IMG/VR virus record: IMGVR_UViG_3300022307_000005
Span: 1-39,181 of that record
Reading direction: 5' to 3' (one strand)
DNA from: a virus
Lineage: Duplodnaviria; Caudoviricetes
DNA length: 39,181 nucleotides
Of this stretch, positions 1 to 37,798 are shown piece after piece. The notes below the pieces were generated by a model. That model had not been told where the DNA came from and did not search any database. It saw only the letters and a program-made list of their open reading frames with translations. Both the position numbers and the translations under genes were made by a program. Numbering within the stretch: position 1 is the first letter of the stretch; each line of letters opens with the position of its first letter.

Positions 1-250
1 GCTGCTCCGGTCTGACCGCACTGCCTGAGCTGCCGAAGTGTGAGAGACTTGATTGTTTCAACTGCACCGGCCTGACCGCACTGCCTGAGCTGCCGGACTG
101 TAAGATACTTAATTGTTCCGGCTGCACCGGCCTGACCGCACTGCCTGAGCTGCCGAAGTGTGAGAAACTTTATTGTTCCGGCTGCACCGGCCTGACCGCA
201 CTGCCTGAGCTGCCGAAGTGTGAGAGACTTGATTGTTTCAACTGCACCGC
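1..250 (+). repeat. Tandem 60-bp repeat, 4 full copies plus a fragment (coding LRR units)
   Basis: Copies begin at 1, 61, 121, 181; only 10 of 60 columns vary. Confidence 0.95.
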
Positions 251-278
251 ACTGCCTAAAGGAGATATTAAACCATGA
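3..278 (+). CDS. Leucine-rich repeat protein (short bacterial LxxLPxLP type), 5' truncated
   Basis: Hand translation of frame 3: CSGLTALPELPKCERLDCFN-CTGLTALPELPDCKILNCSG-CTGLTALPELPKCEKLYCSG-CTGLTALPELPKCERLDCFN-CTALPKGDIKP*, TGA at 276-278; absent from ORF track because the start is outside the window. Confidence 0.88.
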   Translation, partial: CSGLTALPELPKCERLDCFNCTGLTALPELPDCKILNCSGCTGLTALPELPKCEKLYCSGCTGLTALPELPKCERLDCFNCTALPKGDIKP

Positions 279-32771: not shown

Positions 32772-33383
32772 TTATATTACATCCCAATAAGCGTCCTTAA
32801 TCTCTTCCTCTTGAACGCAAAGGTAATCAAGAGTTTGCTTCTGGCTGGAATGATTAAACATTGTCATCAGCACCGGCAAACCAACCCCTTTCTGTCTCTT
32901 CATATAACCGAAAGTCTTTCTCAAAGAATGAGACCCAAAATTTCCTTTTATCCCACAAGCCCGAGCCCAACTTTTCACTTTCGCGTTTAACCCAGGCACG
33001 GTCACCCGCCCCCGCTGCCCAAAGAACAAAGCCTCTTCGAGCCCAATACCTCTCCGTTTCCATTTCTTCAGGTTATTTATAACTCTCACCGCATCAGCGT
33101 TCAAAAGAACCACCCTCGGCTTCTGAGTCTTCTTTTCCCGAAGAAGTATCTTAGGCATATCTTTTGAGTTTTTAGGAACCTCAAGATCCTCAACCTGGTA
33201 ATTACAAATCCCCAAAAGATCAACGGCCCTCAAATTGGTATTTATCCCCACGACAAACAACGCCAGATCGAGCGGTTTATCTTTCAGAAAATTCTTAATC
33301 TTCGAAATACTTTTCTCAGTTTTAAAAGGCTCAACTTTAATTATAGAGCCTTTTTTTGGATGATTAGGATTTTTTAGTGCCAT
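32772..33383 (-). CDS. Short tyrosine recombinase (catalytic domain only)
   Basis: R (TNLR), K (EKKT), HSLRK, NHSS, Y (DYL); 203 aa, no arm- or core-binding domain evident. Confidence 0.93.
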   Translation of the reverse strand: MALKNPNHPKKGSIIKVEPFKTEKSISKIKNFLKDKPLDLALFVVGINTNLRAVDLLGICNYQVEDLEVPKNSKDMPKILLREKKTQKPRVVLLNADAVRVINNLKKWKRRGIGLEEALFFGQRGRVTVPGLNAKVKSWARACGIKGNFGSHSLRKTFGYMKRQKGVGLPVLMTMFNHSSQKQTLDYLCVQEEEIKDAYWDVI

Positions 33384-33891: not shown

Positions 33892-33920
33892 AGTATACCG
33901 GTTAGTTAATGAGATGTCAA
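33892..33920 (-). promoter_or_regulatory. Near-consensus sigma70 promoter for the recombinase operon
   Basis: TTGACA (33920-33915)-N17-TATACT (33897-33892). Confidence 0.85.
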
Positions 33921-34234
33921 GAACTAATTAAATATTTTTTGAAAAAATTAATGTCTCAGCGAATGTAAGCACGAATCAGATAAACTTTTTATTGTGAAAG
34001 TTAATGAGTGGTTTTGGTTATTGTGTGTTGCGTGTTGGGAGCTGGGGCGACCGGTCGCGGGGCAACGACGATTCGCTCTCCCCACCCCCCGCCGGCACCA
34101 TACCCCCCCCCTGTCAAAACGTCCTGCAAGCCGTATTATACACAATAACAATGGTTTACATAGGAAATAACTCGTTAACTAATACATAATAGTTAACCGG
34201 TTTACCAGTGTAGCCTACCGGACCGGGGAAAAAG

Positions 34235-34270
34235 AGTCGCATTATTGCGACTGGTCGCATTGTTGCGACC
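34235..34270. promoter_or_regulatory. Two abutting 18-bp palindromes, candidate protein-binding sites
   Basis: AGTCGCA-TTAT-TGCGACT and GGTCGCA-TTGT-TGCGACC, each with perfect 7-bp arms. Confidence 0.65.
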
Positions 34271-34368
34271 GTGAGCGCGAAAGCGCCAGCTCCACCGGAT
34301 CGGCAACTCATACATACTAAAACTAACCAATAATAACCATAAACGATAGATACACACAATTGATATTG

Positions 34369-34435
34369 ATTCCTTTGTGTTCAGTTATTGAACACTCAAA
34401 CAATTCCTTTGTGTTCAGTTATTGAACACTCAAAC
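34369..34435. repeat. Exact 33-bp direct repeat x2, each containing a 19-bp palindrome (candidate enhancer sites)
   Basis: ATTCCTTTGTGTTCAGTTATTGAACACTCAAAC at 34369 and 34403; GTGTTCA-N5-TGAACAC at 34377 and 34411. Confidence 0.9.
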
Positions 34436-34440
34436 CACAC

Positions 34441-34482
34441 AAAACTATTAAATAATTTAATAAAACTATAAAATAATTTAAT
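34441..34482. repeat. AT-rich 21-bp tandem repeat
   Basis: AAAACTATTAAATAATTTAAT / AAAACTATAAAATAATTTAAT; a third degenerate copy near 34525. Confidence 0.8.
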
Positions 34483-34568
34483 ATAATAATAATACCAAGC
34501 ATATACAAACAGAATAACCTACCAAACTATTAAATTATTTTATAACCTAAATTACACACACTTAATAA

Positions 34569-34581
34569 AATCAATAGGTTA
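34569..34581 (+). promoter_or_regulatory. IHF binding site
   Basis: AATCAA-TAGG-TTA, exact match to WATCAA-N4-TTR with AT-rich DNA upstream. Confidence 0.7.
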
Positions 34582-34585
34582 CATT

Positions 34586-34602
34586 TTGGCACGGTTGTAG
34601 CA
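34586..34602 (+). promoter_or_regulatory. sigma54 (RpoN) -24/-12 promoter
   Basis: TTGGCACG-GTTG-TAGCA; GG 34588-9, N10, GC 34600-1; one mismatch to TGGCACG-N4-TTGCW; AGGAGG and ATG 34657 downstream. Confidence 0.75.
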
Positions 34603-34656
34603 GTATACATAGGCAGTGGCACACAGACAACCAGAAAAAGAAAGGAGGAATTTACA

Positions 34657-34923
34657 ATGAATTATATTAATAAACTTCCGTGCGAGCCGGAAAGGGGCGA
34701 TGTTATCGAGGTTACACGCCGAAATGTTTCCAACAATAATGGCAGAGACTGGGCAAAACACGTTTGCGTCAGCTACATTAGTGTTGATGCTGCATACCGA
34801 GGGACGAATTTTCACGACGGCCCGTCAATGAGTGTATTTGACGGAAATTGTAATAAAATATATAGCGGCCGGTATGAAACATACTGCCGTAAATGGAGTG
34901 GGAAACGCTGGTTATCTGTGTGA
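34657..34923 (+). CDS. Hypothetical protein, first gene of rightward operon
   Basis: AGGAGG RBS. Confidence 0.65.
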   Translation: MNYINKLPCEPERGDVIEVTRRNVSNNNGRDWAKHVCVSYISVDAAYRGTNFHDGPSMSVFDGNCNKIYSGRYETYCRKWSGKRWLSV

Positions 34924-35060
34924 GTGACACACAGGCAACCGCCGGGCAGTAGAGAGTCAAAATTTGTGCTACCATACAATCCCGTAGCAATTGATGCAAA
35001 AGAAGCATTGTGGCTACATCCTATAAATAAGGACATAAAACATTTACGGGAGGTAACGTC

Positions 35061-35387
35061 ATGAAAAACCGCCGACAATGGCAATTTTCCAGAGCAACGT
35101 GTGACAAAATCCGCACGTATCGAATAGAGCAATGGGTGGAGAACGTTGTGCATCGGCTGAAATGGGAGAGAGAAAACAGGAGGAAACAATTAAATAACAT
35201 CAAACAACGGAAGGATAAAAAAATGGCAAAAGAATACAAAATATGGATCGAAATTGAAGAGTACGACACGGAGACCGAAGAAAGCACGGAGACAATTATC
35301 GATGATATGGTTTGTATCCGAGTTTTCGACAACAAAGAATCCGCACAGGCATTTTTGCATGATTTAGAATTAAAATACGACTTCTAA
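35061..35387 (+). CDS. Hypothetical protein (possible second start at MAKEYK)
   Basis: GGAGGT RBS; basic N-half, acidic C-half. Confidence 0.6.
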   Translation: MKNRRQWQFSRATCDKIRTYRIEQWVENVVHRLKWERENRRKQLNNIKQRKDKKMAKEYKIWIEIEEYDTETEESTETIIDDMVCIRVFDNKESAQAFLHDLELKYDF

Positions 35388-35400
35388 GGAGAATACAATC

Positions 35401-35604
35401 ATGACACTTTCAGCAAAACGAATATACCGAATAAACCGTAAAAACCATACCGAAACATTAACATACAAGACATGCATGGACTGCGTAATAAACGGAAAAT
35501 ACCTGCCGTTAAACGGCATCGTAATAAGCGCGAAACCGGAATTCATAATGGATAGAAATGACAAACCTTTCTGGTGCGCAACATGCGGGAACAAAATAAC
35601 CTAA
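35401..35604 (+). CDS. Small zinc-finger protein
   Basis: CMDC ... CATC; AAGGAG RBS. Confidence 0.65.
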   Translation: MTLSAKRIYRINRKNHTETLTYKTCMDCVINGKYLPLNGIVISAKPEFIMDRNDKPFWCATCGNKIT

Positions 35605-35621
35605 CCAAGGAGATATATAAA

Positions 35622-36557
35622 ATGACACATTCAAAATATTGGGATGATTTTCAACGTAGAGCCCGCGAAACAGTGTATTGTCTTCAAAATAATAAACCAG
35701 TTCCCGTTCGTAGAGTTGCTGTATTTATCACTAACCAGTGTAACTTTAGATGTTCATATTGCAATCACAGTCAGGATAAAAAACAGATGCAGCGAGAAGT
35801 ATTTGAAAAAATTATAGAGGATAACCGGGATGCCATTATTCATATTACAGGAGGGGAGCCTTCTACAGTTTCTTGGTTGTATGACTTTATAGATTCAACT
35901 CCGGGAGTCCGATTTCATTTAAACACCAACGGGTTTATTAAACCACCCAGAAATATTCAAAGATTAAAAGCTTCGTTGGATACAGTATCTCCAAAATATT
36001 TTGATTTCATAACTGGTACGTCAGGTGCATATAATAAAGTTATGCAGCACATTCAAGAAGCAAGTTTATATACTACTGTTAGCATTACCTATACGCTCAC
36101 AAAAGAGAATTATTTACTCGCACCCTCTTTTATGCGCCAAGTTAGAAAAACATTCCCCAAGGTATATGCTACTTTTTTCAGCGTTTATAAGGGAACAAAT
36201 CCGAGATTTATGTTTAATGAAGAATCTGCAAATGATTTTTTTGAAAATGTAAAATACAACCTCGAACTGGAGATGGATGAAGAAAGTTACCGGTTGTTTC
36301 AGGAAACCATAACAGAAAAACAGAGAATTATGCAGGGAATTAGATTCCCAGAAAACAAAATTGAAACCCCGTGTTATCTTTCTATGTCAGAAAGGGTATT
36401 TTCCCCCTCGGGAGAAAAATTTAACTGTTCTCATTTATACCGAGACAGTATTCAACACGTAAGGCATAACATTCAAAGTCGATGCCAATATGGATGTAAT
36501 ACAAGGTTGGCTCAATTTAATCAAGATGTAGCCGCTAAGCTGACTCAAGGGCCATAA
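35622..36557 (+). CDS. Radical SAM enzyme with C-terminal Twitch/SPASM-like cysteines
   Basis: CNFRCSYC, ITGGEP, NTNG, ASLD; CYLS..FNCSH..RCQYGC; AAGGAG RBS before ATG 35622. Confidence 0.92.
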   Translation: MTHSKYWDDFQRRARETVYCLQNNKPVPVRRVAVFITNQCNFRCSYCNHSQDKKQMQREVFEKIIEDNRDAIIHITGGEPSTVSWLYDFIDSTPGVRFHLNTNGFIKPPRNIQRLKASLDTVSPKYFDFITGTSGAYNKVMQHIQEASLYTTVSITYTLTKENYLLAPSFMRQVRKTFPKVYATFFSVYKGTNPRFMFNEESANDFFENVKYNLELEMDEESYRLFQETITEKQRIMQGIRFPENKIETPCYLSMSERVFSPSGEKFNCSHLYRDSIQHVRHNIQSRCQYGCNTRLAQFNQDVAAKLTQGP

Positions 36558-36613
36558 ACAGAAACGGTCAATGCTAACAGCTGCCCCGGAACGGGAATAT
36601 AAGGAGATAAAAA

Positions 36614-36865
36614 ATGAACTCAATTTCACTCTTTACCCAATTTTTCAAAAAATCACATCCACAATTAAAGGAAAAATATATAAAAAATTTCCTTGACTGC
36701 CGGAATTTATCCGACCCCAATACAATAAACACTTTTCTAACCAACACAAAACCGGTAAACTACATTTGGTCTGCTTTCGACTGGGGGACAGACTCGAAAA
36801 CCGACTGGACTGAAATAAACGCTCAGTGGCATAACCTTTTAACCGAAAAAGGACTTTTGATATGA
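36614..36865 (+). CDS. Hypothetical phage protein
   Basis: AAGGAG RBS; AFDW...W..IN..W motif. Confidence 0.7.
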   Translation: MNSISLFTQFFKKSHPQLKEKYIKNFLDCRNLSDPNTINTFLTNTKPVNYIWSAFDWGTDSKTDWTEINAQWHNLLTEKGLLI

Positions 36866-37044
36866 AAACTTACGAAATAAACGGACGTTTTTTCACAATC
36901 GGGCAAAAAATTACTATCCAATATTTCGATGAAACCGTCAAAGGAACGCTCTTATCGGTCACAGAATCGAAAAAAGACTGGTTTCTAAGTATCAAGACCG
37001 GAAAAGCAACAAAACTCGTTCAAATTTACAAATCACGGCTTTAA
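36862..37044 (+). CDS. Small beta-barrel (SH3/Sm-like) hypothetical protein
   Basis: IGQKITI...VKGTLLSV; ATGA coupling. Confidence 0.6.
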   Translation: MKTYEINGRFFTIGQKITIQYFDETVKGTLLSVTESKKDWFLSIKTGKATKLVQIYKSRL

Positions 37045-37462: not shown

Positions 37463-37484
37463 GGTATTATTATATAATAATACC
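37463..37484. repeat. Perfect 22-bp palindrome
   Basis: GGTATTATTAT|ATAATAATACC. Confidence 0.9.
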
Positions 37485-37595: not shown

Positions 37596-37798
37596 AAAAT
37601 TGCACCGCTGCACTATAAGTGCATTTCAAGAAATTTTCAAAAATTGAACGTATTTTTTGTGTTGCACAATGCATTTTCGGATTTTTTTGCTTTTTTATCT
37701 ATTTTACTTGTGTTATTCATTACTTAAAGCTTTCGCATTTTTTATTTCGTAAAAAAAAAATTTCTTGAAATGCACTTATGGTGCAGTGGTGCAATTTT
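37596..37798. repeat. 42-bp inverted repeat (2 mismatches) around a 119-bp AT-rich spacer; candidate replication origin
   Basis: Arms 37596-37637 and 37757-37798; multiple TGCAC/TGCATT units; downstream of primase-helicase. Confidence 0.85.

What the first reader, a model, noticed from the sequence alone, without database searches (positions are those of the whole stretch)
34235..34656. Complete sigma54 enhancer architecture driving the rightward phage operon
Seen, in order: paired palindromes GTCGCA-N4-TGCGAC (34235-34270); paired GTGTTCA-N5-TGAACAC 34 bp apart (34377, 34411); an AT-rich tract; an exact IHF consensus AATCAA-TAGG-TTA (34569); TGGCACG-GTTG-TAGCA with GG-N10-GC spacing (34587-34602); AGGAGG and ATG 34657. 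Established: sigma54 promoters stay silent until a bacterial enhancer-binding AAA+ protein bound at tandem upstream palindromes is looped over, often by IHF. No such activator, and no CI-like repressor, is encoded in this window. Inference: the phage ties these genes to one or two host signal-transduction activators, a host-state-sensing switch set back-to-back with a constitutive-looking sigma70 promoter for the recombinase operon.
Basis: partly seen in the sequence, partly recalled or inferred. Interest (0 to 1): 0.85.

Follow-up and report, generated by a model that had tools for sequence, protein, structure and literature searches.

The report
Phage promoter reading host redox sensor
A sediment phage carries, ahead of a small gene block, a bacterial sigma-54 promoter box that most close relatives share, plus palindromes matching the DNA sites found beside an iron-sulfur redox-sensing activator and a surface-sugar regulator in sulfate-reducing bacteria, so the host's redox state likely decides whether these phage genes switch on.

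Summary
The elements are all there. The -24/-12 box is the only one of its kind in the window (1 vs 0.02 by chance). A box at the same place and orientation is found in 13 of 20 close terminase relatives, so it is likely a real sigma-54 promoter. No activator gene was found in the contig or in 2 complete relatives.

New here are the candidate binders. GTCGCA-N4-TGCGAC is the de novo top motif downstream of OrpR-type redox activator genes in Desulfobacterota (11 of 11 loci). TGTTCA-N5-TGAACA is the operator-like site of MarR_EPS regulators heading LPS/EPS clusters (22 of 29 loci), so it is probably not an enhancer.

Caveats: the OrpR-type pair sits three times farther out than in hosts, and phage CI/Cro proteins use the same palindrome. 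The contig is incomplete, so a repressor may be missing.

The scan has noted sigma-54 phage promoters on other DNA before (14 and 24 notes); none held all my OrpR search words. No RNA or binding data.

The parts
32772..33383 (-). 203-aa tyrosine recombinase, catalytic domain only, catalytic residues invariant in the family; second gene of the leftward (late) block
   Evidence: PF00589; named homologs are mostly Desulfobacterota; alignment; no hit in 146 terminase-relative loci
33892..33920 (-). sigma-70-like promoter (TTGACA-17-TATACT) for the leftward block; a half-site like the recombinase arm lies in its spacer at 33904-33915
   Evidence: 11 of 12 consensus matches; the half-site is read directly from the sequence and did not score as a full site
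34080..34112 (.). C-rich tract, possible packaging-start region (inference from recalled phage layouts)
   Evidence: sequence; function untested
   Evidence: top PWM hit in the window, 28.3 bits vs 14.0 next; a site of 15 bits or more lies 60-330 bp upstream of 36 of 57 homologous genes examined
34235..34270 (.). two abutting 18-bp palindromes, consensus sites of the OrpR-type (PAS-[4Fe-4S]) sigma-54 activator of Desulfobacterota; predicted upstream activator sites
   Evidence: 23.8 and 21.3 bits vs 11.0 next best in the window; de novo top motif in 11 of 11 host loci found by protein; 16-mer identical to a host site in L410
34369..34435 (.). exact 34-bp tandem duplication holding TGTTCA-N5-TGAACA (34377-34395, 34411-34429); matches the operator-like site of MarR_EPS regulators, second candidate a TGT-N11-ACA class activator
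   Evidence: 18.6 bits each; host range 12.7-23.6; ZraR-like DVU3381 sites in PMC4641369 supplement
34446..34544 (.). three 17-bp AT-rich palindromes (34446, 34467, 34528), binder unknown
   Evidence: two other contigs of the same run match 34441-34482 with 4-6 mismatches
34569..34581 (+). IHF consensus at about -44
   Evidence: exact WATCAANNNNTTR but not above chance alone; same position as the functional -43 site of D. vulgaris orp2 (PMC3897727 passages)
34586..34602 (+). sigma-54 -24/-12 box; start site predicted near 34613
   Evidence: best site in the window for a matrix trained on relatives only, 19.2 bits vs 16.7
34643..34659 (+). ribosome-binding site and start codon of the first gene
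   Evidence: sequence
34657..37044 (+). six-gene accessory block: five small ORFs of unknown function and a radical SAM (4Fe-4S) protein at 35622-36557; convergent on the replication arm

Best explanation
This is likely a working sigma-54 promoter that starts a six-gene accessory block of a phage predicted to infect a Desulfobacterota host, and it is likely fired by the host's OrpR-type redox-sensing activator bound at the distal palindrome pair. Shown from sequence: the box, its conserved position in relatives, the lack of a phage activator in the records searched, and the match of the distal pair to the site beside OrpR-type genes. Inferred: under reducing conditions the activator's [4Fe-4S] PAS domain would leave it active; it would loop about 340 bp to sigma-54 polymerase with IHF help and switch on the block, which includes an iron-sulfur radical SAM protein. 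The middle pair would bind the host's MarR_EPS regulator of surface-polysaccharide genes and likely dampen or gate the loop. Across the phage family the promoter core is kept while the upstream sites are swapped, each lineage likely borrowing a different host activator.
For: Box: 1 vs 0.02 expected. In 83 dereplicated terminase loci, boxes with at most 1 mismatch upstream of terL number 13 on the anti-late strand vs 1 on the late strand in 188 kb; 13 of 20 close relatives with at least 2.4 kb upstream have one in the junction, most followed by an RBS and ATG. No PF00158 in 5 of 5 records, 2 complete. Distal pair: host hits lie just after PAS-AAA-Fis genes with C-x8-C-x3-C, before a sigma-54 box and orp-type genes; 14 of 15 such genes with helix G[IMV]HK[ST]TL[FI]R have the site, vs 1 weak case in 16 with other helices; de novo top motif in 11 of 11 (shuffle best 7). 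OrpR is a redox sensor working with sigma-54 and IHF (PMC8359166; PMC3897727). Relatives L174 and L177 carry DVUA0057/DVU0110-type sites and L243 DVU2894-type sites (compared by eye). An unrelated phage fragment has the same palindrome and a lone sigma-54 box in its junction (G443).
Against: Geometry differs from hosts: sites 18 bp apart and 333-351 bp from the box, vs 32-34 bp apart and about 100-150 bp; no 18-bp tandem in 401 genomes. The same palindrome lies in CI/Cro regions of 6 of 14 dereplicated viral loci, and 0 of 14 have a sigma-54 box within 600 bp. None of 13 relatives' promoters has the OrpR-type site (best 5.5 bits). The only characterised OrpR binds a different 17-bp motif (PMC8359166), and DVU2827 has a similar 16-bp motif, so the binder's identity is inferred from gene context. 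An IHF consensus was seen in only 3 of 11 relatives' promoters whose rows were visible. Three relatives reach the junction without a box, one with a sigma-70 promoter instead. The host is not identified.
Confidence: 0.5

Rival explanations
1. The promoter is real, but the activator that fires it binds the nearer sites (the TGTTCA-N5-TGAACA pair or the AT-rich triplet), and the OrpR-type pair is a back-up input or idle.
For: TGT-N11-ACA is a known activator site class, with 32-34 bp spacing in DVU2394 and DVU3381 sites, one differing from the phage arms by one base (PMC4641369). The pair lies 175-209 bp from the box, a usual distance; two host loci have a single site 194 and 209 bp from a box (L316, L332).
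Against: The motif is the de novo top one upstream of MarR_EPS genes (9 of 12 over cut-off, 13 of 17 below; shuffles 0.05), where 0 of 22 loci have a sigma-54 box. No 34-bp tandem in 201 genomes. The 34-bp spacing comes from one duplication.
Confidence: 0.2
2. The distal palindromes are operators of the phage's own XRE-family repressor, encoded in the missing part of the genome, which keeps this block off in a lysogen.
For: GTCGCA-W4-TGCGAC lies in the CI/Cro region of 6 of 14 dereplicated viral loci whose HTH helices read STIFRY or STFYRK. The contig lacks its central control region, and relative G408 has CI/Cro there.
Against: No sigma-70 promoter overlaps the pair, unlike loci L482 and L484. 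G408's own repressor helices are of another type and its junction repeats do not recur in its CI/Cro gap. No HTH_3 in the window. It does not explain why the second pair and the relatives' repeats also match host-type motifs.
Confidence: 0.12
3. The junction is a decoy array: near-perfect sites that soak up host regulators (OrpR, MarR_EPS) and park sigma-54 polymerase on incoming DNA, changing host Fe-S or surface-sugar gene expression, with little transcription.
For: The sites are closer to consensus than most host sites, duplicated, and far from the box (333-351 bp here, 808 bp in G443); G443's junction is packed with tandem copies of several motifs. An earlier unchecked note proposed parking (e1-10208529).
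Against: The box points into an RBS and gene block here and in most relatives, and one relative has a sigma-70 promoter at the same place, which argues for a promoter. Two sites per genome are a small sink before replication (inference).
Confidence: 0.1
4. The palindromes and IHF site are accessory sites for the adjacent recombinase core site or for terminase binding at a packaging start.
For: The distal pair begins 31 bp from the recombinase site; a C-rich tract and the terS gene are near; a terS-like protein of a relative has an HTH. Lambda cosB and Xer sites use IHF or host accessory proteins (recalled).
Against: No exact copy of either palindrome in 161 recombinase loci; relatives lack the recombinase but keep the box; the repeats match host regulator motifs.
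Confidence: 0.06
5. The arrangement is chance in an AT-rich gap.
For: The IHF match is at chance level; the second pair is one duplication; the left copy of the first pair also reads as a terminator-like hairpin on the minus strand.
Confidence: 0.02

Closest known systems
OrpR (DVU2106)-IHF-sigma-54 control of the orp operons in Desulfovibrio vulgaris Hildenborough (PMC8359166: parts 1-2 of 7 and 12 passages read; PMC3897727: 12 passages read)
   Same: Order of activator site, IHF site near -43/-44 and -24/-12 box; the host genes beside the phage-type site have OrpR's domains, three cysteines and orp neighbours; Fe-S-related genes downstream.
   Different: Here the promoter is on a phage with no activator gene; the site is the 16-bp motif of a Desulfobacterota subfamily, not the 17-bp GGGCGYRTTTTGCGCCC; the pair abuts and lies about three times farther out; other regulators' sites lie in between.
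Sigma-54-like promoter P015 of Pseudomonas phage YuA (PMC10914365: one passage read; the 2008 primary paper was not read)
   Same: A phage promoter assigned to host sigma-54.
   Different: The passage names no activator, upstream site or IHF site; here candidate host binders are named and the box is shown to be syntenic across a phage family.
MarR_EPS family (TIGR04176) regulators at LPS/EPS clusters
   Same: The same palindrome lies upstream of 22 of 29 such genes in Desulfobacterota; neighbours of 4 loci checked are sugar-nucleotide and polysaccharide genes.
   Different: In hosts the sites flank a sigma-70 -35 element, often 48-50 bp apart; in the phage they are 34 bp apart inside a sigma-54 upstream region. 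I found no paper describing the operator, so binding and repression are inferred.
Tyrosine recombinase core sites of loxP/dif type (recalled; P1 Cre-loxP near pac)
   Same: Inverted arms around a short variable spacer, linked to a recombinase gene and near the packaging genes.
   Different: The enzyme lacks the core-binding domain (about 200 aa); in the phage the site is about 790 bp from the gene rather than about 180 bp; activity untested.

Membership tests
Enhancer-dependent sigma-54 promoter | GG-N10-GC -24/-12 box near consensus, above chance | tested here: met
Enhancer-dependent sigma-54 promoter | Box conserved in position and orientation in relatives, ahead of an RBS and gene | tested here: met
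   13 of 20 close relatives; 13 vs 1 by strand
Enhancer-dependent sigma-54 promoter | Upstream palindromic site of a known activator class | tested here: met
   OrpR-type motif
Enhancer-dependent sigma-54 promoter | Functional IHF site between activator site and box | tested here: inconclusive
   exact consensus at -44 but at chance level; seen in 3 of 11 visible relatives
Enhancer-dependent sigma-54 promoter | Start site 12 bp past the GC; dependence on rpoN and activator ATPase | not testable with these tools
   no RNA holder listed
OrpR regulon | Cognate activator has PAS, C-x8-C-x3-C, AAA+ with GAFTxA and a Fis HTH, beside orp genes | tested here: met
   host loci; cysteine spacing from PMC8359166
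OrpR regulon | The D. vulgaris 17-bp site GGGCGYRTTTTGCGCCC | tested here: not met
   the phage has the 16-bp subfamily motif
OrpR regulon | Host geometry: tandem 32-34 bp apart, about 100-150 bp before the box | tested here: not met
   18 bp apart, 333-351 bp away
OrpR regulon | Binding and redox-dependent activation | not testable with these tools
   needs EMSA and reporter
MarR_EPS operator | Match to the motif upstream of TIGR04176 genes | tested here: met
MarR_EPS operator | Overlap with a sigma-70 promoter as in hosts | tested here: not met
   no sigma-70-like site over 34377-34429; TTGAC within 220 nt in 19 of 22 host loci
Phage CI/Cro operator | Adjacent divergent XRE genes and overlapped sigma-70 promoters | tested here: not met
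Phage CI/Cro operator | A cognate repressor elsewhere in the genome | not testable with these tools
   contig incomplete
Tyrosine recombinase core site | Conserved inverted arms with variable spacer linked to the recombinase family | tested here: met
   36 of 57 loci (matrix built from 31 of these sites, the window not among them)
Tyrosine recombinase core site | Strand exchange by the encoded enzyme | not testable with these tools
   needs a resolution assay

The most novel reading that the evidence does not exclude
A family of sediment and groundwater podovirus-like phages runs its first accessory genes from a conserved sigma-54 core with a swappable cassette of host regulator sites. This member integrates two host signals, redox state through a [4Fe-4S] OrpR-type activator and surface-polysaccharide state through MarR_EPS, so that it expresses an iron-sulfur enzyme only in a reduced host, while relatives read the EPS/biofilm or flagellar activators instead.
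Probability: 0.3. Interest if true: 0.85.

Novelty: new variant of a known kind. Interest (0 to 1): 0.68.

Why it matters
Sigma-54 promoters cannot fire without an activator, so a phage that uses one without encoding an activator ties its genes to a host signal. Ten literature searches (open-access library only) gave one phage example, YuA, with no activator named in the passage read. Here a specific host activator family is named, and it senses redox, the main variable for anaerobic sediment bacteria. The claim is directly testable because OrpR, IHF and sigma-54 have been reconstituted in E. coli (PMC8359166, PMC3897727). The borrowed sites also act as host-prediction tags for uncultured phages. 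As by-products the work gives candidate binding motifs for a Desulfobacterota OrpR subfamily, for MarR_EPS regulators and for a widespread short tyrosine recombinase.

Tried and rejected
No RNA holder listed for the region; the one DNA run is contigs only and may be the source, so it shows no ends or start sites. Single-protein scans found no close relatives for the radical SAM or TerL in viral contigs and only 25% TerL matches among named phages; alignments were needed. The tandem 18-bp pattern was not found in viral contigs or in 401 Desulfobacterota genomes at 3 mismatches; the 34-bp tandem was not found in 201 genomes. Multi-copy GGGTCGCATATATGCGACCC hits in G280, G130, G252 and G192 are repeat elements (REP-like, label recalled) and were set aside. 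The first whole-record sigma-54 pattern (TGGCAC-N7-GCW, 13 of 37 records) was no better than its reversed control; the signal appeared only with strand and position. The leave-one-out matrix ranked another site above the junction box in L180 and L242. The 5' leader and first ORF fold no better than shuffles (z -0.89). The first ORF has no family (atlas score below 0.9). The radical SAM has only weak viperin and MoaA domain hits and no constant neighbours, so its job is open. A third MarR_EPS-like site at 37633 (17.3 bits) lies in a repeat-rich gap, and such scores occur about 6 times in 650 kb, so it was not counted. No binder was found for the AT-rich triplet. No MarR_EPS gene in 5 phage records. 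A DNA search of the phylum for prophage relatives or spacers was not run, so the host rests on motifs, the recombinase family and one terL hit in 401 genomes. No structure or complex prediction was run: the claim is protein-DNA. Part 6 of 6 of the PMC4641369 site table and the supplements of the other papers were not read and could hold closer motifs.

Full report
Setting. The window is one linear phage contig (G000) held by one sediment metagenome run. It begins and ends inside genes; CheckV gives 54% and two complete relatives are 49 kb, so the control region between the replication arms is missing. Replication genes (exonuclease, SSB, polymerase A) run rightward to 5834, a late block (tyrosine recombinase, terS, terL, portal, capsid) runs leftward from 33859, and six genes run rightward from 34657 to 37044. 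The finding is the gap between the last two blocks.

Observation. Every element is present at the stated coordinates. The gap holds 6 spaced palindromes with arms of 7 or more against 0.77 in 300 shuffles. The -24/-12 pattern occurs once against 0.02 expected. The IHF consensus is exact but at chance level (3 vs 3.87). The second pair is one exact 34-bp duplication; node depths in the one run hint at 2-3 copies (weak).

The box is conserved. A TerL alignment fetched 146 loci besides the window's own record, which I dropped; they collapse to 83. Boxes with at most one mismatch upstream of terL number 13 on the strand pointing away from the late genes and 1 on the other in 188 kb; downstream the counts are 8 and 1 in 464 kb. 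One of the 13 (L242, -326) lies in a coding region. Of 20 close relatives (43-49% TerL identity) with at least 2.4 kb upstream, 13 have a box in the junction: 11 at one mismatch or fewer, L242 at two, and L163 after extending its record. Of the 7 misses, 3 reach the junction (L268, L299, L197; L299 has a sigma-70 promoter there) and 4 probably end before it, judged by eye from ORF lists. None of 3 distant loci (33-36%) has one. An RBS-ATG follows at about +28 to +49 in 9 of 13 relatives by script. A matrix trained on relatives alone ranks the window's box first. No sigma-54 activator domain was found in 5 of 5 records, 2 of them complete.

The distal pair. The exact palindrome occurs in 21 of 301 Desulfobacterota genomes, no more than its reversed control, and many hits are repeat elements. 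But five hits lie about 90-150 bp before a sigma-54-like box and orp-type genes (L410, L413, L382, L393, L412), and in four of them the gene just upstream is a PAS-AAA+-Fis activator with C-x8-C-x3-C, the cysteine spacing of OrpR (PMC8359166). A PAS-domain search matched 102 of 201 genomes; I examined the 30 best loci plus L382. Of 15 with recognition helix G[IMV]HK[ST]TL[FI]R, 14 have the site before a box, mostly as a 32-34 bp tandem; of 16 with other helices, 1 has a weak site (only 420 nt downstream were read; one locus is cut). Because that search was seeded with the phage motif, I ran an unseeded search on the 11 loci of that helix type found by protein alone: GTCGCA-N4-TGCGAC came first, in 11 of 11, against 7 for the best motif in one shuffle. 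The phage's sites score 23.8 and 21.3 bits, the next window site 11.0, and 1 position in 650 kb of relatives' DNA reaches 18 (4 of the training loci were found with the motif). D. vulgaris OrpR is active only at low redox potential, needs sigma-54 and IHF, and its orp2 IHF site lies at -43; the phage's lies at -44. Against: the phage sites abut (18 bp) and lie 333-351 bp out; D. vulgaris OrpR binds another motif; DVU2827 has a similar one; and 6 of 14 dereplicated viral loci with the palindrome are CI/Cro regions with similar HTH helices, none of the 14 having a box within 600 bp. One of the 14, an unrelated phage, has a lone box 808 bp away in the same kind of junction.

The middle pair. TGTTCA-N5-TGAACA occurs in 71 of 301 genomes; tandem copies led to MarR_EPS-like genes in sugar-nucleotide clusters. 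In a family search not seeded by the motif (38 of 121 genomes, 30 loci fetched, 29 with enough upstream DNA), the site is present at 2 mismatches or fewer in 9 of 12 loci over the cut-off and 13 of 17 below it, against 0.05 in shuffles, and it is the de novo top motif. None of those 22 has a sigma-54 box within 400 nt and 19 have TTGAC. In the tandem loci the sites flank a -35 element, which suggests self-repression (inference); no paper on it was found. The phage copies score 18.6 bits (host 12.7-23.6). An activator of the TGT-N11-ACA class stays possible: such sites are spaced 32-34 bp in the PMC4641369 table, and 2 of 46 host loci examined have a single site about 200 bp from a box.

Relatives swap the upstream sites. 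None of 13 relatives' promoters has either of the window's motifs. L174 has four and L177 two or three sites of the DVUA0057/DVU0110 type (exopolysaccharide and biofilm), L243 has copies of the DVU2894 type (flagella), and L180, L166 and L172 have other repeats (matched by eye, not scored). L177, L245 and L188 show no repeats above shuffles by my repeat count.

The left part. A site at 34168-34203 matches a conserved element 60-330 bp upstream of 36 of 57 homologous short tyrosine recombinases (57 of 161 loci, chosen as the closer ones with upstream DNA). It has inverted arms and a variable centre, like loxP or dif (recalled), and likely serves genome circularisation or multimer resolution (inference). 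Relatives lack this recombinase (0 of 146), so it is a separate cassette. Relative G408 has CI/Cro and an integrase in the region that is missing here; G407 has none detected. The sigma-54 block is therefore an accessory block, not shown to be the developmental switch. In G407 it holds a DNA methyltransferase-like gene; here it holds a radical SAM protein of a family seen almost only in metagenomes and phages.

Mechanism and odds. A real sigma-54 promoter needing a host activator: about 0.85. OrpR-type activation from the distal pair with MarR_EPS gating: 0.5. A nearer activator: 0.2. Phage repressor operators: 0.12. Decoy array: 0.1. Recombination or packaging accessory sites: 0.06. Chance: 0.02. 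Nothing here shows transcription or binding.

Prior knowledge. Papers seen: PMC4641369 (main text parts 1-3 of 7; supplementary file 3 parts 1-5 of 6), PMC8359166 (parts 1-2 of 7 and 12 passages), PMC3897727 (12 passages), PMC10914365 (one passage, on YuA); all others as search listings only. Ten searches listed no paper on a phage promoter driven by a named host sigma-54 activator; the library lacks most subscription journals. The scan itself has noted sigma-54 phage promoters on other DNA (14 and 24 notes; unchecked), none like this sequence, none on this genome and none holding all my OrpR search words. I rate it a new variant of a known kind, interest 0.68.

Noticed in passing
window 34168-34203 and loci L002-L094: Conserved core site (TTAACT-N10-AGTTAA with extended arms) upstream of a large family of about 197-aa tyrosine recombinases in Desulfobacterota, cyanobacteria and others; in some phages displaced by 0.6-4 kb.
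   Followed up: partly
loci L340-L343, L445-L474: TGTTCA-N5-TGAACA is a candidate operator for MarR_EPS (TIGR04176) regulators; both the short form and a 200-aa form below the cut-off share it.
   Followed up: yes
loci L415-L444: OrpR-like paralogs split by HTH recognition helix; only the HK[ST]TL[FI]R type has the GTCGCA site downstream. XRE phage repressors with an STIFRY helix sit beside the same palindrome, a possible convergence.
   Followed up: partly
window 37596-37637 and 37757-37798: 42-bp inverted repeat (95%) 119 bp apart downstream of the primase-helicase, plus a perfect 22-bp palindrome at 37463-37484; possible replication origin and terminator.
   Followed up: no
window 34615-34632 and 34923-34940: 18-nt direct repeat flanks the first ORF, and 34620-34634 is complementary to 34908-34922; possible cassette seam or alternative RNA pairing, but folding is not above shuffles.
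   Followed up: partly
window 34441-34482: Two other contigs in the same run carry a similar AT-rich palindrome pair with different flanks; binder unknown.
   Followed up: partly
window 38231: The run's contig has one more base here than the window, so the primase-helicase C-terminus in the window may be an assembly frameshift.
   Followed up: no
window 1-278 and L372:8190-8807: Leucine-rich-repeat-like protein (LPELP repeats) at the contig start; a similar repeat reads on the opposite strand in relative G407.
   Followed up: no
L543:3085-3910 (G443): Unrelated phage junction about 900 bp long, filled with tandem copies of several different motifs between a sigma-54 box and the endonuclease/terminase genes.
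   Followed up: partly
G408:4405 and 26788; L166; L250: Extra sigma-54-like boxes: a perfect one antisense inside G408's integrase, a divergent pair in L166, and repeated half-boxes in L250.
   Followed up: no
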